Shown one piece after another: positions 2,148 to 58,416 of a DNA stretch of 64,000 bases. The stretch comes from a virus. Lineage: Duplodnaviria; Caudoviricetes. Made by a program: the position numbers and the translations under genes. The stretch spans positions 87,639-151,638 of IMG/VR virus record IMGVR_UViG_3300028591_000103; one strand, 5' to 3'. Numbering within the stretch: position 1 is the first letter of the stretch; each line of letters begins with the position of its first letter. The notes beneath the pieces are model-generated. The model saw only the letters and a list, made by a program, of their open reading frames with translations, searched no databases and had not been told where the DNA came from.

Positions 2148-4160
2148 TTATAATGCAACCATCTTCGCATAGACTTCCTTGCCGTTTCCGACTGTAATCG
2201 GATTTGTTTCTGCTCTGAGGTCTGCAATTGTTGCATACCATGTAAGCGAGGTTGTAGATTCGTCCGGAATTGTAGCTGGGAGTGCTGCTCCGTCTGCAAA
2301 TGTATCGTAATAGGCATATGTGTAAGTGCTGGGCGATGGGTAGTTGCTTGCTGAGAGATACGCATAGGATTTAACAAGGATTGCGCAGTCTGTAGGAAGA
2401 CTTGTGAATGCGTTAGAATTTTGAATGGTCGGTGGAGTTGCTTTCTCAAATTTCACACTACCGAGTGAAGCGCAGTTACCAAAAGCCAGGTTCCCAATCG
2501 ATGTAACGCTGTCTGAAATTGTAACACTCCCGAGTGACCTGCAGTATTGAAAAGCATACGTCGAAATTGATGTAACACTGTCTGGAATGGTAATGTTACT
2601 GAGTGAAAGGCAATTGTAAAAAGCATACATCGAAATTGATGTAACACTGTCTGGAATGGTAACGCTATCGAGTGAATAGCAGTACATAAAAGCATACGCC
2701 GAAATTGATGTAACACTGTCTGGAATGGTAACGCTATCGAGTGAATAGCAGTATTGAAAAGCATACATCGAAATTGATGTAAGACTGTCTGGAATGGTAA
2801 CGCTGTTGAGTGAATAGCAGTAATAAAAAGCATACTTCCCAATTGATGTAACGTTGTCTGGAATAGTGATGCTGCTGAGTGAATAGCAGCTGTCAAAAGC
2901 ATTCGACTGAATTGATGTAACGTTGTCTGGAATAGTAATGCTGCTGAGTGAATAGCAGGATATAAAAGCAAGCGACTGAATTGATGTAAAGCTGTCGCCA
3001 ATAAACATCCTCTTTATAGCATTTATATAGTTTCGCGATTCATTAGCATCGAATCCGTCTTTCATCAACAATCCACATGAATTGTTTTTTTCTAAGAAAT
3101 TCGCCGTACCAGTAACCGTCAGCGTAATCACATACTCTCCACCGCTAGGATAGGTATGCGGCTGAGTGCTGACATAAGTTGACACATTCGTTCCAGTCAG
3201 CGTCGTATGCGCAGAACCATCGCCCCAGTCGATATCAACAGAACCATTCACGCCAAGTCCGAGAACAGGCTCTCTCCGGTATTCGTCAAGCTCGATAAAG
3301 ATTCGCGTCTTACCGTCAGTCACTTTGTATTTCTGACCGATATCGAGCTTTCCATACTTCGCTACATACGCCTTTGCTTTTGCGAATGTTGACCACATCC
3401 ACCCCTGCGCGGTCAGTCCGTCATGAGATGGATTTGTAGGCCAGTCTGTCAGCTCCGCAAACTCTGCTGCTGTGTAACTATGGACGATTGTTCCATCATA
3501 GTCGATAAAGTTCACGGCTTTCTTTTCAGCTCCGCCGCCGCCACCTGATGGGACATTGACAGTGAGACTGCTAATCAATGTGGTATCGACATCCCCATTC
3601 TCAGTCACAGTATCACTACCCTGTGCGACTAAAGCGCCGTTAGAAACGACTTTACCTTCATCACCCGCTGCGTATGTATTTGGTACATTGATTTCAATGC
3701 TATTGATTAGGGTTGTATCGACAGTTCCATTAGATGTAGCAGAACTGGAAGACTGTGAAACAAGTTCTCCACCAGATACGACTTTGCCCTCATCTTGTGC
3801 GGTATAGCTATTCGAAACAGAAACGCTGACAGAACTGTATCCATCAGCGTTATCATCTTTTGCTTTATATGCTCCATTTTCATTAATGGATTTGCTGATC
3901 AGTGTACTACCACCGCCACCTCCTCCTCCACCGGAAGGATCCTTGTCTGGAAAGTATTTATAGATACTTTCGCCGTTCACAACCTTTCCTGTTGCAGACT
4001 CGGTAATACGATACTGTGGAAAGTTGATCAGATATGCCAGTTGGTCGTATGTTGCAGCAAAACCAGAAACGGGATTTGGTTGATTAATGATTGCAATGTT
4101 GATCGCACGCATCGCCGGAACGGAGATATCGACAACATCAATCACCAACGTCTCAGCCAT
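2148..4160 (-). CDS. BspA-type (LRR_5) leucine-rich repeat protein, putative receptor-binding protein
   Basis: 8 repeats of IPDSVTSIxxxAFxxCxSLxSxT, a PKD-like IDWGDG motif and poly-Gly linkers. Confidence 0.85.
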   Translation of the reverse strand: MAETLVIDVVDISVPAMRAINIAIINQPNPVSGFAATYDQLAYLINFPQYRITESATGKVVNGESIYKYFPDKDPSGGGGGGGGSTLISKSINENGAYKAKDDNADGYSSVSVSVSNSYTAQDEGKVVSGGELVSQSSSSATSNGTVDTTLINSIEINVPNTYAAGDEGKVVSNGALVAQGSDTVTENGDVDTTLISSLTVNVPSGGGGGAEKKAVNFIDYDGTIVHSYTAAEFAELTDWPTNPSHDGLTAQGWMWSTFAKAKAYVAKYGKLDIGQKYKVTDGKTRIFIELDEYRREPVLGLGVNGSVDIDWGDGSAHTTLTGTNVSTYVSTQPHTYPSGGEYVITLTVTGTANFLEKNNSCGLLMKDGFDANESRNYINAIKRMFIGDSFTSIQSLAFISCYSLSSITIPDNVTSIQSNAFDSCYSLSSITIPDNVTSIGKYAFYYCYSLNSVTIPDSLTSISMYAFQYCYSLDSVTIPDSVTSISAYAFMYCYSLDSVTIPDSVTSISMYAFYNCLSLSNITIPDSVTSISTYAFQYCRSLGSVTISDSVTSIGNLAFGNCASLGSVKFEKATPPTIQNSNAFTSLPTDCAILVKSYAYLSASNYPSPSTYTYAYYDTFADGAALPATIPDESTTSLTWYATIADLRAETNPITVGNGKEVYAKMVAL
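2451..3002 (-). repeat. 8 x 69-bp coding tandem repeat (LRR)
   Basis: Near-identical DNA scaffold attccagac(a/g)..gttacatcaatt...tgctttt...tgctattcactc at 69-bp spacing. Confidence 0.9.
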
Positions 4161-4162
4161 AA

Positions 4163-5398
4163 TTATTCACCACCATCCTCATTGGTTTCGTCGATTGGTT
4201 GTGTGGATGAAAGTTGAACAAGCTTTCCGATAGCGACATCTGCTTCAAAAGCTTCATCAACAGTAACGGATTCATCATCCGTTGAAGTATATGTCGCAGA
4301 AACTTGATATACATAACCGATCTCATTGTATACGAGATCACCCTTTGTATATTCCGTGTTCTTTGCGTATTCTTTGACACGCGGTTTCATCGTGATGATC
4401 TGATTTTCCAATGCAGCAACACGTGCTTGGAGATCAGATACGGCAGTTGTCAGAATCGTAACATCGCGTGCAAGTTCTTCGATCAAATGCTCAGTCGGAT
4501 GATACAATGAATTGTATACATCAAATGTATTTCCTGTCGCGATTGTATTCGCCATATAAGCAGTGAAGTTCATCTTCAGACGAGTTGTCAGATTCAGTTG
4601 AACTGCAAATCTCTGATTGATGTTGACTGCTGCAATGAGAATGCGATTATCCGCAATATCAATAGCATCATGCTGAACACTGATGTGGGTGTTATTATTC
4701 ATCCAGATATAATACGGATTCAGATCATCCACAACATGTGTGAGTGTATCAAGAATGTCAACATACGCTTCCATCTTATCAATGAAAATAGTATAGATAC
4801 CATTATAATCAACCTGTGGAAGATTGGTCACAATGACATTCTTGAATGATGTAATAAAGAAATCATTGACATCGGTATAGTGGAACAAATGGTCTTTGAC
4901 AATACTTTCGACTGTATTCTCATATACCACACCACCTTGTGCATCTTCCAGATGGAAATACAGTTTGAAGATCACACTAGAATGCTGGATCGGAAGATAG
5001 TTCTCCAGTGTTTCAAATTCATTTGAAATCACCTGATTCAGGAATCCATTCCATACAGCATTTGTGACAATGTCTCCACCGGTCATATCCAGACTTGCAG
5101 TCAGATTAATACAAGACGGATCGGAACGTTTGCTGATTCTGGTGTAAACATTTTCAGACACACTCAGTTTTGTACCATATTTGGTAGTCGTATTATCGAC
5201 CAGATATGGAATATTGTTCACGACCATGAATGCGTTTTCTTGCATACTTCCAGATGCAGGATACTTTGCTGTATTCGGTTGGTACATCTGCTGACAGCAA
5301 TCACACTGGAATGATGCACCTCGTACATATGGATATGACACAAGCACCGGTTGAGAACCATGTCCACAACCACCGCAGTTGAATCCGCTTTGATTCAT
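4163..5398 (-). CDS. virion structural protein with coiled coil and C-terminal CBM5/12-like module
   Basis: Cys-rich N-terminus; heptads LQARVAALE; C-terminal YAKNTEYTKGDLVYNEIGYVYQV. Confidence 0.55.
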   Translation of the reverse strand: MNQSGFNCGGCGHGSQPVLVSYPYVRGASFQCDCCQQMYQPNTAKYPASGSMQENAFMVVNNIPYLVDNTTTKYGTKLSVSENVYTRISKRSDPSCINLTASLDMTGGDIVTNAVWNGFLNQVISNEFETLENYLPIQHSSVIFKLYFHLEDAQGGVVYENTVESIVKDHLFHYTDVNDFFITSFKNVIVTNLPQVDYNGIYTIFIDKMEAYVDILDTLTHVVDDLNPYYIWMNNNTHISVQHDAIDIADNRILIAAVNINQRFAVQLNLTTRLKMNFTAYMANTIATGNTFDVYNSLYHPTEHLIEELARDVTILTTAVSDLQARVAALENQIITMKPRVKEYAKNTEYTKGDLVYNEIGYVYQVSATYTSTDDESVTVDEAFEADVAIGKLVQLSSTQPIDETNEDGGE

Positions 5399-16008: not shown

Positions 16009-16041
16009 GTTTTTCATATATATATAATTAATATGAATAGA
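16009..16041 (+). promoter_or_regulatory. 33-bp early promoter-like repeat, copy 1
   Basis: gtttttcatatatatataattaatatgaataga, identical at 56050-56082 (-) and 57631-57663 (-); contains TATATAAT. Confidence 0.8.
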
Positions 16042-16076
16042 AGAAATCCATGGTGGATCGAAAGGAGGTGATAGAT

Positions 16077-16133
16077 ATGACAAATGTCGTAATCATCACC
16101 GTTCCTGTAGACACTGAAATCATTTGTGAGTAA
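16077..16133 (+). CDS. 18-aa micropeptide MTNVVIITVPVDTEIICE
   Basis: RBS GAAAGGAGGTGA; homologous peptide at 57533-57589 with synonymous codon differences. Confidence 0.75.
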   Translation: MTNVVIITVPVDTEIICE

Positions 16134-16268
16134 TGATTAAGAGTGACGAGCCCCCAAATTTATTTGGAACGTCAGAAACCATGGATTTCTAATATTCATT
16201 AAAGAAAGAGTCTTTAAGACTCAATAAATATTTTAAACTCCGCAAGGAGAGAAAGTGAAGGTATTAAA

Positions 16269-16823
16269 ATGAAAAACATGAATTCTAAAATCAACGAGAA
16301 CCTCGATACTCTTAAGTCTCTGGCGTTCGATGCCAGAAATGCTCTCATGGAAATGAGAGCAACATTTGTCGCATGGAATGAGGAAGCATTCCGTGCGATC
16401 GTCATGGAAGACGCTGAACTCACAGAGGGGCTTATCAATGAGCTCCGCGAATGCGGGTTCGAAACAGAATCCATTGATGACGGTCGCAAGATCGTCAGCG
16501 AGCTCATCGAAAATCTGGGCGAAACTGCCCGGGAAATGAATGAAGCTCAACGTGAACTGACTCTGCAGAATCTCGTCGGTGGCTCAACAAGAACCTGCTC
16601 GGAGTGTCATGCCCCGATAAACGACACCGACGAATATTGTCCGATTTGCGGTTCCAAGGAGGGTGCACTGAAGCCCTATGTAGAGCCGCGGAGAATTGAG
16701 TGTGTCACATGTAAATGCGGACGCACTTATGATCAAGAATATCGCTTCTGCCCGAGCTGTGGTAAAGCGAATTCTAAGCACAGCTTGAACAAAGAACCTG
16801 ATGCATTCGACATATTCAAATGA
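16269..16823 (+). CDS. double zinc-ribbon protein (early cargo gene)
   Basis: CSEC..CPICG and CKCG..CPSCG at the C-terminus, helical N-terminus. Confidence 0.75.
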   Translation: MKNMNSKINENLDTLKSLAFDARNALMEMRATFVAWNEEAFRAIVMEDAELTEGLINELRECGFETESIDDGRKIVSELIENLGETAREMNEAQRELTLQNLVGGSTRTCSECHAPINDTDEYCPICGSKEGALKPYVEPRRIECVTCKCGRTYDQEYRFCPSCGKANSKHSLNKEPDAFDIFK

Positions 16824-34101: not shown

Positions 34102-34254
34102 AATATGAAGAGCCGCGGGAAGACTTTTTACAAGGAGGCCTACGGCACAGTGAAACACTCAAGTTTAGGAGGCATGAGTAATATTGGTCACTTCGAATCG
34201 GGGGAGCTAATCCCGATCTATTCACAACGGCAAGAAACCGCGGCTCTTCATATT
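34102..34254 (+). ncRNA. candidate structured ncRNA closed by a 17-bp perfect stem
   Basis: aatatgaagagccgcgg ... ccgcggctcttcatatt with internal hairpins. Confidence 0.5.
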
Positions 34255-55004: not shown

Positions 55005-55029
55005 AGAAGCGGCCGTTATGGCCGCTTCT
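55005..55029. terminator. bidirectional terminator
   Basis: agaagcggcc-gttat-ggccgcttct flanked by A and T runs. Confidence 0.8.
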
Positions 55030-55143
55030 CTTTGATGATATTGAGGAATCTTATGATAAGACCCTCTGCTGCAGCTATTGCTGCACAGAAGGCGACGAAT
55101 TTAAACACAGCCTTCATGTCTTTTACTTTTTTCATTTTTTTTT

Positions 55144-55952: not shown

Positions 55953-56049
55953 GGTAATCCTTCACTTTCTCTCACAATTATCGGCTGTGAGCAACCATCA
56001 AAAGCTTATTTTTTTTTATCGAATAGAATCATTCATTATTCAATTATCT

Positions 56050-56082
56050 TCTATTCATATTAATTATATATATATGAAAAAC
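56050..56082 (-). promoter_or_regulatory. 33-bp early promoter-like repeat, copy 2
   Basis: Identical to 16009-16041. Confidence 0.8.
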
Positions 56083-56114: not shown

Positions 56115-56813
56115 TTAATCGTCAAATGGGTCTACATAACATTCTTGTTTGATATTTTCATCAAACTTTTCAGGAACTTCCTTGATGAGTTTGGAATAAC
56201 CTGGCTGTGCTTTAATGACATCATCCAGCTCAACAGGTTTCTTTCTACCGCCTAAATATGCAACATCAATCTGATTCGTATATGGTAACCAATATGTTTT
56301 ATACCCATGGATATGACCATGAATATTCAATCGGTTATTGTTCTTACACGGCATATGAGAAAACAGAATATTCTGATATACAAATTTTGGTGTGATGTAT
56401 TTAAATCCATTTGACAGATAATATTCGTCATCAAACAGATCATTATTTCCACGAACCATAATCTTTGTACCCGGCAATGATTTCAATACCTCACCAAGTT
56501 CTTTTTTCTTCTCACATTGACCATCAACAAGATCTCCGAGATATATCACGAGATCAGATGGATTTACAGTACGATTATAAGAATTTATAATAGCATTGAA
56601 ATCAGAACGTTGGTACACAGTTTTCGTTTTCTTGTCAAACATCCACAGATGCCAATCTGTGCATAACCATACTTTGTTTCCATCATCTAATGTCTTTTTA
56701 ATCAGATTACTTATTTGAGAAGATAATTCTGTTTTGGATTCTTTGATATCTTGCTCGACTTCATCTTCATGCTTTCGAGAATATTCTGTAATGACTCGAT
56801 TAAAGAAATTCAT
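56115..56813 (-). CDS. calcineurin-like metallophosphoesterase
   Basis: TDWH, YLGD, RGNND, FSHMP, NIHGHIH. Confidence 0.85.
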   Translation of the reverse strand: MNFFNRVITEYSRKHEDEVEQDIKESKTELSSQISNLIKKTLDDGNKVWLCTDWHLWMFDKKTKTVYQRSDFNAIINSYNRTVNPSDLVIYLGDLVDGQCEKKKELGEVLKSLPGTKIMVRGNNDLFDDEYYLSNGFKYITPKFVYQNILFSHMPCKNNNRLNIHGHIHGYKTYWLPYTNQIDVAYLGGRKKPVELDDVIKAQPGYSKLIKEVPEKFDENIKQECYVDPFDD

Positions 56814-56911
56814 ATGAACACAACCTTTCTACGAGAATTCGTTATGTTCCAGTAATTCCATGTAAAAAAGAAAAAAAAGACGGAGTGTTATTACACACCC
56901 CGTCTACGTAC

Positions 56912-57106
56912 TTAGTCCCCTGTGTAGTTCCACAGGGAACCATAAAACTTTCTGATAGCTTCATACTCTTCGCGAGTAATCAGGCCATCATCGAGTGCAT
57001 GCCCAAAGGCGTCACACCTCGACATCTGTACCGGAACGTCGTTGTAGCGACGTTCGAAGTCGCGATACATTGCATGAATATCATAGGAAGATAACTCTCT
57101 GCTCAT
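56912..57106 (-). CDS. hypothetical early protein
   Basis: RBS AAGGAGG; ATGA overlap; ends GSLWNYTGD. Confidence 0.65.
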   Translation of the reverse strand: MSRELSSYDIHAMYRDFERRYNDVPVQMSRCDAFGHALDDGLITREEYEAIRKFYGSLWNYTGD

Positions 57107-57399
57107 TTCAGTTCCTCCTTCCATGAGTTTATGAAGTTTGCTCCTTGCCGGAGCGTTCTGACGCGTTTCTCGCTCGTCATGAACATCATAAGCAGCTCAT
57201 CGTAGTTGTCCGTCGTGTTGTCGGTCACCGAATACACTGCCTGACGACATTCGTTGCTGGTGTGATCAGTATTCCCGAATCTGGTGATCACATCCTTCGC
57301 CAGGTTGATGAATGCTTCTTCGGAATTGATGGCGACAGCCAATGCCACCATGAGATTTTGTATGTCGTGACACACTCTTGTTATTTCAGCATTGTTCAT
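57103..57399 (-). CDS. hypothetical early protein (cassette cargo)
   Basis: Start MNNAEITR after AGAAAGTGAGGGG. Confidence 0.65.
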   Translation of the reverse strand: MNNAEITRVCHDIQNLMVALAVAINSEEAFINLAKDVITRFGNTDHTSNECRQAVYSVTDNTTDNYDELLMMFMTSEKRVRTLRQGANFINSWKEELK

Positions 57400-57532
57400 G
57401 GTTCCCCTCACTTTCTCCTCTTTCGAGGTTTAAATATTTTTGAGTCTTAAGACTCATCTATTAATGAATGAGGAAACATCTTCATCAGGTTCTGTATTTA
57501 CCCATTTTATGAAGTTGATTTTCACAAGGAAA

Positions 57533-57589
57533 TTATTCGCAGATTATTTCCACATCTACTGGAATCGGAATTCTTACGATTTCACTCAT
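57533..57589 (-). CDS. 18-aa micropeptide MSEIVRIPIPVDVEIICE
   Basis: RBS GGAGGTGA; homolog of 16077-16133. Confidence 0.75.
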   Translation of the reverse strand: MSEIVRIPIPVDVEIICE

Positions 57590-57630
57590 GATTATCACCT
57601 CCATTCAATTCCCTGCAGAAGATGATTTCC

Positions 57631-57663
57631 TCTATTCATATTAATTATATATATATGAAAAAC
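57631..57663 (-). promoter_or_regulatory. 33-bp early promoter-like repeat, copy 3
   Basis: Identical to 16009-16041. Confidence 0.8.
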
Positions 57664-57684
57664 GGGTTTCATGAATAAAAAAAA

Positions 57685-57705
57685 ATGGGGGACATAGTCC
57701 CCCAT
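57685..57705 (-). terminator. intrinsic terminator
   Basis: atgggggac-tat-gtcccccat followed by a T run on the - strand. Confidence 0.8.
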
Positions 57706-57714
57706 GCATACTCG

Positions 57715-58416
57715 TCATTTACGCATTTTTATTTCCGCAATCAATCCACGGACTTTGTTGAAGTGTGATGTCACTTTGTTTTTACTTTTATTATCAATCC
57801 CAGCAAGATGATGTTTCAACGCGGAATCGAACAGCTCAACATCAGCACCACGAAGTGTTACCAAGTTCATGATACGGGTGTGTTTTTCCAAAGATAATCC
57901 GAGTTCTATAAGCCATTTCTCAAAGTTATCCGGTAAACTCGGCATGAATACATTACCTGCGGCAAGCCATGATGTCAAAAACATGTGATCGGGCAGATCC
58001 TCAAGACTGGTAATGGAATCATCCTCATCATTGACAACAGGAGGTATAGGATGAGATGACACAACCTCAATCCACCCACCACTTGCTGCAATATAACCTT
58101 TTTCTTCGAGAGATGTCCCAGTCAGAAAATATCTGAGTATTTGTGTATGTCCTTTATCTCGAAGAAATGTTGTTTGTGGATTAAAAACCGGATCAGTGTT
58201 TGCAAGATATACACGACCACCAGCCGCATCACAAGCTTTCCACATTTCGTACACATACGTTGTATCTTTTTCAATTTCTTCGAGAAAATATGCATGCAGC
58301 TGATCTCTCTCGGAAGGATTGAAAAGATAACCGTCAATTGTTGTAAAATCTCCTGTAAACGCGTCATTGATTTTGACAGGAATTTTGATAACAACCGGAG
58401 TTCCTTTAGTTGGCAT
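57715..58416 (-). CDS. hypothetical protein
   Basis: RBS GGAGGTGA, start MPTKG. Confidence 0.7.
   Translation of the reverse strand: MPTKGTPVVIKIPVKINDAFTGDFTTIDGYLFNPSERDQLHAYFLEEIEKDTTYVYEMWKACDAAGGRVYLANTDPVFNPQTTFLRDKGHTQILRYFLTGTSLEEKGYIAASGGWIEVVSSHPIPPVVNDEDDSITSLEDLPDHMFLTSWLAAGNVFMPSLPDNFEKWLIELGLSLEKHTRIMNLVTLRGADVELFDSALKHHLAGIDNKSKNKVTSHFNKVRGLIAEIKMRK

What the first reader, a model, noticed from the sequence alone, without database searches (positions are those of the whole stretch)
57400..57670. Second copy of the peptide-in-stem cassette (MSEIVRIPIPVDVEIICE) with different cargo
Seen on the - strand, in order: promoter 57631-57663; stem arm gaggaaa(t)catcttc (57618-57632); RBS GGAGGTGA; ORF 57589-57533; closing arm gaagatgtttcctc (57470-57483); perfect 16-bp palindrome tgagtcttaagactca (57441-57456); AAATATTTAAA; cctc-GAAA-gagg; AGAAAGTGAGG; then two small unknown genes. 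Compensatory changes in both the long stem and the GNRA hairpin relative to copy A point to conserved RNA structure. The peptide is acidic and beta-strand-like with a conserved penultimate Cys, unlike hydrophobic type I toxins or secreted arbitrium pro-peptides.
Basis: partly seen in the sequence, partly recalled or inferred. Interest (0 to 1): 0.85.

Follow-up and report, generated by a model that had tools for sequence, protein, structure and literature searches.

The report
Clamped micro-gene in phage early transcripts
An uncultured giant phage starts some of its probably earliest transcripts with a tiny gene for an 18-residue peptide, shut inside an RNA helix that begins at the first transcribed base; the gene is conserved in related phages and can stand alone, but its target is unknown.

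Summary
Every listed element is at the stated place on the minus strand.

The long stem is larger than described: 22 pairs, 57612-57637 with 57466-57489. It starts at the predicted first transcribed base, G57637.

The promoter matches the virion-polymerase early promoter of phages AR9/PBS1. The genome encodes AR9-like multisubunit RNA polymerase.

I found six distinct versions of the cassette: two in this genome and four in metagenomic relatives. All have a helix from +1 built from different sequences, four with G-U pairs. All have a 16-21 codon ORF under purifying selection; the six invariant residues each use 2-3 codons.

The peptide reads as strand, variable turn, then a strand ending Ile-Cys-Glu.

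The cassette precedes five unrelated cargo sets. In one relative it has no cargo at all. In another the ORF is deleted while helix and cargo remain.

Best reading: a self-contained micro-gene inserted in the loop of the 5' hairpin that most leaders of this promoter family carry. The helix probably gives nuclease protection, perhaps also an RNase III site.

The peptide's target is unknown. An earlier agent of this scan reached a similar verdict on copy A of this same genome.

The parts
57676..57705 (-). Intrinsic terminator of the upstream 233-aa gene (9-bp G+C stem, 3-nt loop, T-run); every copy of the promoter follows such a hairpin
   Evidence: the same layout in L018, L030, L085, L090, L060
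57638..57672 (-). Promoter. The AT-rich 13-mer at 57644-57656, then 6 bases, then G57637 fits the AR9 early (virion RNA polymerase) consensus in 11 of 13 positions. It also fits a sigma-A type pair of hexamers (57667-57672 and 57644-57649, 10 of 12). Both models put the start at about 57637.
   Evidence: (PMC5312081)
57612..57637 (-). 5' arm of the clamp helix, beginning at the predicted first transcribed base
57594..57602 (-). Shine-Dalgarno of the micro-ORF. My reading, without a computed duplex energy: nine bases complementary to the canonical Bacillus-type 16S rRNA tail. Predicted to be mostly paired in the equilibrium fold.
57533..57589 (-). Micro-ORF: 18 codons plus stop, encoding the acidic peptide named in the finding's title
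57466..57489 (-). 3' arm of the clamp helix
57441..57456 (-). 16-bp palindrome, read as an RNA hairpin of 6 pairs with a 4-nt loop. Copy A has one extra base at the centre.
57417..57428 (-). 4-bp hairpin with a GNRA loop, abutting the cargo ribosome-binding site
57404..57416 (-). Purine-rich ribosome-binding block of the cargo, shared by all cassettes and predicted mostly unpaired (0.58-0.93)
57103..57398 (-). Cargo gene 1: 98 aa, ORFan, helical-hairpin model, one homolog at 71% identity
56912..57106 (-). Cargo gene 2: 64 aa counted from the ATG that overlaps the stop of gene 1; weak SHOCT-like match below Pfam's cut-off
16009..16275 (+). Paralogous copy A. Start at 16035, clamp 16035-16054 with 16178-16197, micro-ORF 16077-16133, cargo a 184-aa zinc-ribbon protein.
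55953..56076 (-). Promoter copy C without the peptide. It has a short 5' hairpin and a degenerate remnant of the alternative leader seen in L018/L051.

Best explanation
Cassette B is the head of a probably early transcription unit of an uncultured jumbo phage. The host is probably a spore-forming Firmicute.

Transcription starts at G57637 from a highly conserved phage promoter. The first 26 bases of the RNA pair with bases 149-172 and close a domain of about 170 nt. Inside that domain sit a strong ribosome-binding site and an 18-codon ORF.

The ORF is translated into a small acidic peptide. Its pattern is a hydrophobic strand ending in Pro, a variable 2-4 residue turn, then a strand ending Ile-Cys-Glu. 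This suggests a beta-hairpin that acts in trans on an unknown target.

The clamped domain is a self-contained micro-gene. In evolutionary terms, it sits in the loop of the short 5'-terminal hairpin that most leaders of this promoter family carry.

The helix hides the 5' end. In the stand-alone form it ties the 5' end close to the 3' end. Its likely job is therefore protection of a very short mRNA from 5'-end-dependent decay by RppH and RNase J1. At 20-24 bp it could also be an RNase III site that would cut the mini-mRNA free of the cargo.

The cargo downstream has its own hairpin and an open ribosome-binding site. It is an independent, swappable passenger.

Shown here: the sequence elements, the helix and its covariation, coding selection, cargo independence, and the stand-alone and deleted variants.

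Inferred: early timing, the exact transcription start, the nuclease role, and action of the peptide in trans.
For: Promoter.
- AR9 early promoters are a 13-mer, then six bases, then G(+1) (PMC5312081). The window's copies match 11 of 13 positions with the same spacing.
- The majority form in 44 metagenomic promoters matches 12 of 13. Those promoters show no conserved -35 hexamer.
- The genome encodes an AR9/PBS1-like RNA polymerase beta subunit.

Helix.
- All six distinct cassettes, and the deletion variant, fold with a helix from nt 1.
- Duplex z-scores run from -5.4 to -11.0, and 0 of 100 shuffles reach the observed value in any cassette.
- 15 of 18 pair ranks show two or more pair types across four cassettes.
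- Four of the six distinct clamps, and the deletion variant, contain a G-U pair. On the other strand that would be a mismatch.

Coding.
- 10-12 of 17 residues are identical between pairs despite 16-20 base differences. P is 0.0002-0.004, and other frames give 5-6 identities.
- pN/pS is 0.18-0.56 in all 15 pairs. The six invariant residues each use 2-3 codons.
- The indels fall in frame and in the turn.

Independence from cargo.
- Five unrelated cargo sets follow the cassette.
- In L060 the cassette is followed only by a weak hairpin with a U-run and the 3' end of a convergent, conserved gene.
- The cargo ribosome-binding site is predicted open (0.58-0.93) in every version.

Family context.
- 33 of 45 leaders with this promoter pair their first six bases, against 25% of shuffles. 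The partner usually lies 26-45 nt away.

Precedents in Bacillus.
- 5'-end occlusion and strong Shine-Dalgarno sites stabilise mRNA (PMC3997798).
- hbs mRNA has a 14-bp 5'/3' pairing (PMC5737220).
- A functional 17-aa peptide exists, and a ribosome on a very strong SD blocks RNase J1 (PMC12067863).
Against: - There are no expression data. The start site and early timing rest on analogy with AR9. A host sigma-A promoter fits equally well at this copy.
- The micro-ORF's start region is predicted paired in four of six versions. That could mean weak or conditional translation.
- In one relative (L101) the ribosome-binding site, start codon and ten codons are deleted while helix and cargo persist. 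So that copy of the peptide is dispensable, or the 1.4-kb contig is misassembled.
- Part of the N-terminal residue conservation (the Ile/Pro/Thr codons) may reflect pairing of that RNA stretch with the purine-rich ribosome-binding site rather than peptide function.
- No target or partner of the peptide is known. It is too short for the folding tools offered here.
Confidence: 0.55

Rival explanations
1. Cis-acting leader. The micro-ORF exists to load or park a ribosome near the 5' end, either as a stabiliser in the style of the ermC stall or as an arrest peptide. That ribosome would stabilise or tune the cargo mRNA. Residue conservation would then reflect contacts of the nascent chain with the ribosome tunnel.
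For: - The Shine-Dalgarno is very strong. By my reading it has 9-13 bases complementary to the 16S tail in five of six versions.
- Conservation is highest at the C-terminal four residues and the stop.
- Bacillus precedents exist in which a ribosome at a 5'-proximal site stabilises long downstream RNA.
Against: - The stand-alone unit in L060 has no cargo to regulate.
- The cargo ribosome-binding site is open whatever the state of the ORF, and no terminator lies between them.
- The distance from the conserved Pro to the stop varies by 2 residues, and the N-terminus varies by 1-3 residues. That is unusual for arrest peptides.
- The ORF-deleted variant keeps its cargo.
Confidence: 0.2
2. Dual-function RNA. 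The end-paired RNA domain of about 170-210 nt is itself a regulator, for example a ribosome or protein decoy that displays Shine-Dalgarno-like loops. The peptide would be a second product.
For: - The helix is kept when the ORF is lost (L101).
- At the same genomic slot a close relative carries an alternative clamped leader. Its hairpin loop shows a conserved 14-nt Shine-Dalgarno-like motif and no conserved ORF.
- Other notes on this genome describe end-paired RNA islands with SD-like words. I did not check these.
Against: - Outside the helix and the ORF the interior has little conserved sequence or structure.
- Coding selection shows that the peptide matters.
- No Rfam family matches.
Confidence: 0.15
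3. DNA-level element. The inverted repeats and the 16-bp palindrome would be recombination or operator sites of a mobile promoter cassette, not RNA structure.
For: - Cassettes are clearly shuffled between slots and cargoes in close relatives.
- The palindrome is identical in copies A and B and shows no covariation.
Against: - G-U pairs in four of the six distinct clamps, and in the deletion variant, would be mismatches in DNA or on the other strand.
- The arms lie 120-180 bp apart, which is unfavourable for cruciform extrusion.
- The helix always starts exactly at the predicted +1, even where the promoter-proximal bases differ (L090).
- The palindrome's centre differs by one base between copies. 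That shifts half-site spacing but only changes a loop from 4 to 5 nt.
- The palindrome is absent from four of six cassettes.
Confidence: 0.05
4. Chance ORF inside a structured leader, with no peptide made.
For: The start region is predicted paired in four of six versions. One natural deletion of the ORF exists.
Against: Codon-position statistics, in-frame indels and synonymous variation at every invariant residue across six versions argue against it. A strong, correctly spaced Shine-Dalgarno is present in all.
Confidence: 0.05

Closest known systems
Early (virion RNA polymerase) transcription units of Bacillus jumbo phages AR9/PBS1 (Lavysh et al. 2017, PMC5312081)
   Same: An AT-rich 13-mer, six bases, then G as the start. 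The match is 11-12 of 13 positions. The genome encodes a related multisubunit RNA polymerase beta subunit, about 29% identical. Promoters follow terminators of upstream genes.
   Different: In PBS1, only 10 of 30 predicted early leaders pair their first six bases, which is background level. Leaders there are short, and I saw no clamped micro-ORF. Here the first seven transcribed bases are also conserved and form a helix. This record holds only four copies of the promoter in 151 kb, against 41 in AR9.
Bacillus 5' mRNA stabilisers: ermC leader (from my own knowledge, a 19-codon leader ORF), cryIIIA STAB-SD, hbs and yrzI/spyTA mRNAs (PMC3997798, PMC5737220, PMC12067863)
   Same: A 5'-end-proximal very strong Shine-Dalgarno, a short ORF and occlusion of the 5' end. 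hbs even uses a 14-bp long-range pairing of its 5' UTR with a distal segment.
   Different: In those cases the peptide sequence is irrelevant or acts only in the tunnel, and the element serves the downstream gene. Here the residues are conserved across diverged phages and the unit can stand alone. Stabilisation has not been measured.
Very small functional peptides and dual-function RNAs: SpyA/S1025 (17 aa, B. subtilis, PMC12067863). From my own knowledge: SR1/SR1P, RNAIII/delta-haemolysin, phage T4 Stp (26 aa).
   Same: A peptide of under 30 residues encoded on a short structured RNA and acting in trans. T4 Stp is an early phage peptide aimed at a host system.
   Different: No sequence similarity. 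No partner gene is fixed next to it. At 16-21 residues it would be among the shortest conserved phage gene products. A role for the RNA part is unproven.
RNase III-processed early mRNAs of phages T7 and SP82 (from my own knowledge; not checked in a paper here)
   Same: Helices of about 20 bp with small internal loops between early cistrons. In SP82 the cut is followed by a purine-rich stabiliser, which resembles the purine-rich block at 57404-57416.
   Different: Here the helix encloses a whole cistron and starts at +1. Cleavage is untested.
Type I toxins and arbitrium AimP pro-peptides
   Same: A small unannotated ORF in a phage of a Gram-positive host.
   Different: No hydrophobic membrane segment, no antisense RNA partner, no signal sequence and no receptor gene nearby. 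The peptide is acidic. Not members.

Membership tests
AR9-type virion-RNAP early promoter | AT-rich 13-mer consensus followed by six bases and a G start | tested here: met
   11 of 13 positions in the window copies and 12 of 13 in the majority of 44 related promoters, with identical spacing
AR9-type virion-RNAP early promoter | The phage encodes AR9-like split or fused multisubunit RNA polymerase | tested here: met
   The 1449-aa protein matches phrog_3148 at E 1e-149. tblastn hits the PBS1, Goe21 and staphylococcal jumbo-phage beta subunits.
AR9-type virion-RNAP early promoter | Transcription early in infection and independent of protein synthesis | not testable with these tools
   Uncultured phage with no RNA data. 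A sigma-A type reading also fits this copy.
Bacillus-type 5' mRNA stabiliser | The 5' end is sequestered in structure with few or no unpaired bases | tested here: met
   Pairing from nt 1 in all seven folds. Mean unpaired probability of nt 1-6 is 0.04-0.26.
Bacillus-type 5' mRNA stabiliser | A strong Shine-Dalgarno close to the 5' end | tested here: met
   By my reading, 9-13 bases complementary to the 16S tail at nt 30-44 in five of six versions. No duplex energy was computed.
Bacillus-type 5' mRNA stabiliser | Lengthens the half-life of downstream RNA | not testable with these tools
   Needs rifampicin-chase Northern blots in wild type and RNase mutants
Leader-peptide attenuation or ribosome-arrest switch | Alternative structures couple translation of the leader ORF to a terminator or to the cargo ribosome-binding site | tested here: not met
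   No terminator lies between the ORF and the cargo. The cargo site is open at 0.58-0.93 in every fold. The ORF ends 45-90 nt before the 3' arm.
Leader-peptide attenuation or ribosome-arrest switch | Always linked to a regulated downstream gene | tested here: not met
   The L060 unit has no cargo
Type I toxin-antitoxin | A hydrophobic membrane peptide plus an overlapping antisense RNA | tested here: not met
   The peptide has net negative charge and no stretch long enough to span a membrane. No antisense promoter or terminator was found.
Any Rfam RNA family | A score at or above the family's gathering threshold | tested here: not met
   0 matches in the window. Only sub-threshold hits were found, and they fall on the terminator.
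RNase III processing site | About two turns of double-stranded RNA | tested here: met
   17-24 pairs with small internal loops in all versions
RNase III processing site | Staggered cleavage by RNase III | not testable with these tools
   Needs an in vitro cleavage assay or an rnc mutant

The most novel reading that the evidence does not exclude
The 16-21 residue beta-hairpin peptide is an immediate-early host-takeover effector. It would be one of the shortest conserved phage gene products. It is made from a new kind of expression device: a mini-mRNA whose ends are base-paired from the very first nucleotide. That device can be dropped in front of any early gene or used alone.
Probability: 0.3. 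Interest if true: 0.75.

Novelty: new variant of a known kind. Interest (0 to 1): 0.55.

Why it matters
Genes this short are invisible to gene callers, so phage annotation misses them. This is a small family of six versions in diverged jumbo phages. Coding selection and structure covariation are both statistically clear for it. It is placed where the phage probably makes its first RNA.

If the peptide acts on the host, it defines a minimal effector that could be synthesised chemically and used as a probe. If the helix stabilises the RNA, it is a compact, portable device for expressing very short ORFs in Firmicutes.

The family also shows how phage early regions are rebuilt from promoter, leader and cargo modules.

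Tried and rejected
- DNA search of the phage collection with the region: no match.
- IMG/VR scans found no true relative: back-translated peptide, promoter plus peptide ribosome-binding site, C-terminal motif (one hit, shown to be chance), and relatives of the RNA polymerase gene.
- An 18-base promoter word in IMG/VR gave 31 hits. Only L018 and L030 were true relatives.
- A GTDB genome scan for the C-terminal motif gave 29 hits, close to the number I estimated by hand for chance. None was a micro-ORF.
- Records behind the Logan/ENA loci are not held, so their full contigs could not be searched for further copies.
- The peptide is below the 30-residue limit of structure prediction, complex prediction and the protein atlas, so no fold or binding test was run.
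- Pfam and PHROGs on all cargo proteins gave nothing useful. The atlas on the 98-aa cargo showed only a generic helical hairpin.
- A switch in which the 3' arm pairs alternatively with a downstream repeat of the 5' end looked possible in L090, read by eye. It is absent from copies A and B, so I dropped it.
- Sequestration of the micro-ORF start as a defining feature was rejected, because it holds in only four of six versions.
- The MAFFT alignment of whole leaders misplaces the helix arms. Covariation was therefore counted on each sequence's own fold.

Full report
**What is there**

On the minus strand, the 233-aa gene (57715-58416) ends in a canonical terminator at 57676-57705. A conserved promoter block follows.

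- The core 27 bases of that block recur without a mismatch at 16015-16041(+) and 56050-56076(-). Shuffles expect 0 matches.
- A diverged fourth copy lies outside the window, at genome 63238-63264.
These are a ribosome-binding site, an 18-codon ORF (57589-57533), a 16-bp palindrome (57441-57456), a GNRA hairpin, a purine-rich ribosome-binding block and two small genes.

**The genome**

The window is the last 64 kb of a 151,638-bp virus record. A protein identical to the cargo of copy A is on record from a contig of 217,986 bp. The complete genome is therefore probably a jumbo phage.

The record encodes a 1449-aa RNA polymerase beta subunit. It is related at about 29% identity to those of PBS1, Goe21 and staphylococcal jumbo phages. 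Strong Shine-Dalgarno usage, and a SpoIIID-like gene in syntenic relatives, point to a spore-forming Firmicute host. This is an inference.

**Promoter and start site**

AR9 early promoters, used by the virion RNA polymerase, are an AT-rich 13-mer, six bases, then G as +1 (PMC5312081).

- The window copies match 11 of 13 positions with the same spacing. This places +1 at G57637 for copy B and at 16035 for copy A.
- A metagenome scan with the promoter found 48 loci, many on contigs of 212-258 kb. Their majority form matches AR9 in 12 of 13 positions. There is no conserved -35 hexamer.
- At this copy a sigma-A type reading also fits, at 10 of 12 positions. It predicts the same start.
- Early timing is inferred, not shown.

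**The helix**

Folding the predicted transcript gives a helix from nt 1. Nt 1-26 pair with nt 149-172, forming 22 pairs. The leader z-score is -4.45, and copy A scores -6.78.

I then collected relatives through the flanking proteins and by scanning all fetched loci for the ORF. Six distinct cassettes exist:

| Cassette | Transcript coordinates |
|---|---|
| copy A | window 16035-16275(+) |
| copy B | window 57395-57637(-) |
| L090 | 4766-5006 |
| L100 | 937-1169 |
| L086 | 3995-4240 |
| L060 | minus strand, from 835 |

L102 is nearly identical to copy A.

- Every cassette folds with a helix from nt 1 that is built from a different sequence.
- The duplex of nt 1-22 with its partner scores -21.6 to -29.3 kcal/mol, against shuffled means near -10. 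No shuffle of 100 reaches it in any case.
- Across four cassettes, 15 of 18 pair ranks show two or more pair types.
- Four of the six distinct clamps, and the deletion variant, contain a G-U pair. This assigns the structure to the sense RNA rather than to DNA.
- In L090 the promoter-proximal bases themselves differ, and the partner has changed with them.

**The helix in context**

Of 45 unique leaders behind this promoter family, 33 pair their first six bases, against 25% of shuffles. The partner usually lies 26-45 nt away, so the structure is a short 5'-terminal hairpin. The clamp of the peptide cassettes is that hairpin with a micro-gene in its loop.

PBS1 does not share the trait. Only 10 of 30 predicted early leaders there pair their first bases.

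**The ORF is coding**

The six peptides align over 16-21 residues with six invariant positions.

- Between pairs, 16-20 of 51 bases differ, yet 10-12 of 17 residues are identical. P is 0.0002-0.004, and the other frames give 5-6 identities.
- pN/pS is 0.18-0.56 in all 15 pairs. Each invariant residue is written with 2-3 different codons.
- Length changes are in frame. They fall at the N-terminus or in the 2-4 residue segment between the conserved Pro and the C-terminal strand, which often holds Asp-Gly or Ser-Gly.

The pattern is a hydrophobic strand, a turn, and a strand ending Ile-Cys-Glu, which suggests a beta-hairpin.

One caution applies. In copies A and L100 the codons of the first strand also pair with the ribosome-binding site. 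Part of that conservation may therefore be an RNA constraint.

**Independence from cargo**

| Cassette | Cargo |
|---|---|
| copy A | zinc-ribbon protein, 184 aa |
| copy B | ORFans of 98 and 64 aa |
| L090 | 388-aa ORFan |
| L100 | 171-aa protein, then the zinc-ribbon protein |
| L086 | 39-aa membrane mini-protein |

In L060 the clamp is followed only by a weak hairpin with a U-run and by the 3' end of a convergent gene. That gene has homologs at about 50% identity in eight other loci. The unit there stands alone.

The slot between the 233-aa gene and the phosphoesterase gene varies as follows:
- cassette B in the window;
- an alternative leader with other cargo in a 94%-identical relative (L085);
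- a peptide cassette with a third cargo in L090;
- nothing in more distant relatives.

The cargo ribosome-binding site is predicted open in all versions.

**A natural knock-out**

In L101, a 46-base deletion removes the ribosome-binding site, the start codon and ten codons. The helix and the cargo are kept. Against five intact, diverged versions, it shows that one copy can be lost, not that the ORF is meaningless. The contig is only 1.4 kb, so an assembly error cannot be excluded.

**The other elements**

- The palindrome occurs only in copies A, B and L102.
- Its centre differs by one base between A and B. That suits an RNA hairpin, where the loop goes from 4 to 5 nt, better than a dimeric operator.
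- A hairpin always abuts the cargo ribosome-binding block, but its sequence and loop vary: GNRA in A, B and L085, and other loops in L090, L100 and L086.
- Neither element is part of the peptide module.

**Mechanism**

The best-supported reading is a self-contained early micro-gene whose mRNA is closed by an end-anchored helix.

The helix probably protects a very short message from 5'-end-dependent decay. Several Bacillus observations make this plausible:
- 5'-end occlusion and strong Shine-Dalgarno sites are the common determinants of stabilising leaders (PMC3997798).
- hbs mRNA uses a 14-bp long-range pairing (PMC5737220).
- A ribosome on a very strong site blocks RNase J1 on the spyTA mRNA, which also encodes a functional 17-aa peptide (PMC12067863).

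At 17-24 bp the helix is also of RNase III size. Cleavage would free the mini-mRNA from the cargo and leave the cargo RNA starting near its own hairpin. This step is untested.

A purely cis-acting leader is less likely for three reasons: the stand-alone unit, the open cargo site and the variable spacing inside the peptide. An RNA-level function of the domain cannot be excluded.

**Comparison and novelty**

The promoter belongs with AR9-type early promoters by sequence. The clamp, the conserved first transcribed bases and the micro-ORF are not AR9/PBS1 traits.

No Rfam family matches. No homolog of the peptide turned up in IMG/VR or in 185,579 species genomes.

The parts are of known kinds: a small-peptide gene, a 5' protective structure and modular early cassettes. 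The combination is new. An earlier agent of this scan examined copy A of the same genome and reached a similar verdict. Look-ups by sequence found no look-alike in other windows of the scan.

Noticed in passing
L085:4780-4930, L018:230-345 (same as L051), L044 and L047 leaders: An alternative clamped leader carries a hairpin whose 14-nt loop is conserved letter for letter across diverged phages, twice in L044 and L047. The loop contains a 7-base Shine-Dalgarno-like word. The short ORFs after it are not conserved. Possibly a ribosome or protein-binding loop.
   Followed up: partly
window 55953-56045 (-): Promoter copy C drives a leader that is a degenerate, deleted version of the L018/L051 leader. 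It keeps a pre-RBS hairpin whose 8-nt loop is identical to that in L018, L100 and L101, while the stems covary.
   Followed up: partly
window 56813-57715 and loci L085, L088, L090, L092-L097: The gap between the 233-aa gene and the metallophosphoesterase gene is a hypervariable slot. It holds three different promoter-leader-cargo inserts in close relatives and none in distant ones. This suggests recombination at the near-identical promoters.
   Followed up: yes
L101:15-205: A natural variant in which the micro-ORF's ribosome-binding site, start codon and ten codons are deleted while the clamp helix and cargo remain.
   Followed up: yes
L143, L149, L150 (Clostridia MAGs, genome contigs): Clp-type AAA+ ATPases of gut Clostridia end in the same seven residues as the peptide, preceded by a similar strand. 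The search pattern forced those seven residues, so this is a lead for a C-terminal mimicry idea, not evidence.
   Followed up: no
window 34102-34254: A 17-bp closing stem of another end-paired element begins, read on the minus strand, with a sequence resembling the 3' part of the early promoter and its first transcribed bases. Which strand is transcribed is unclear.
   Followed up: no
window 55016-55135 (-) and L086:4235-4354: A conserved 39-aa hydrophobic mini-protein is the direct cargo of a peptide cassette in the 94% relative. In the window it lies two genes further down the copy-C operon.
   Followed up: no
whole record: The record is 151,638 bp, but a protein identical to the copy-A cargo is on record from a contig of 217,986 bp. 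The record is probably an incomplete jumbo-phage genome, and further peptide copies may exist in the missing part.
   Followed up: no
window 57103-57110 (-): The two cargo genes of cassette B overlap in a four-base start/stop junction, typical of translational coupling.
   Followed up: no
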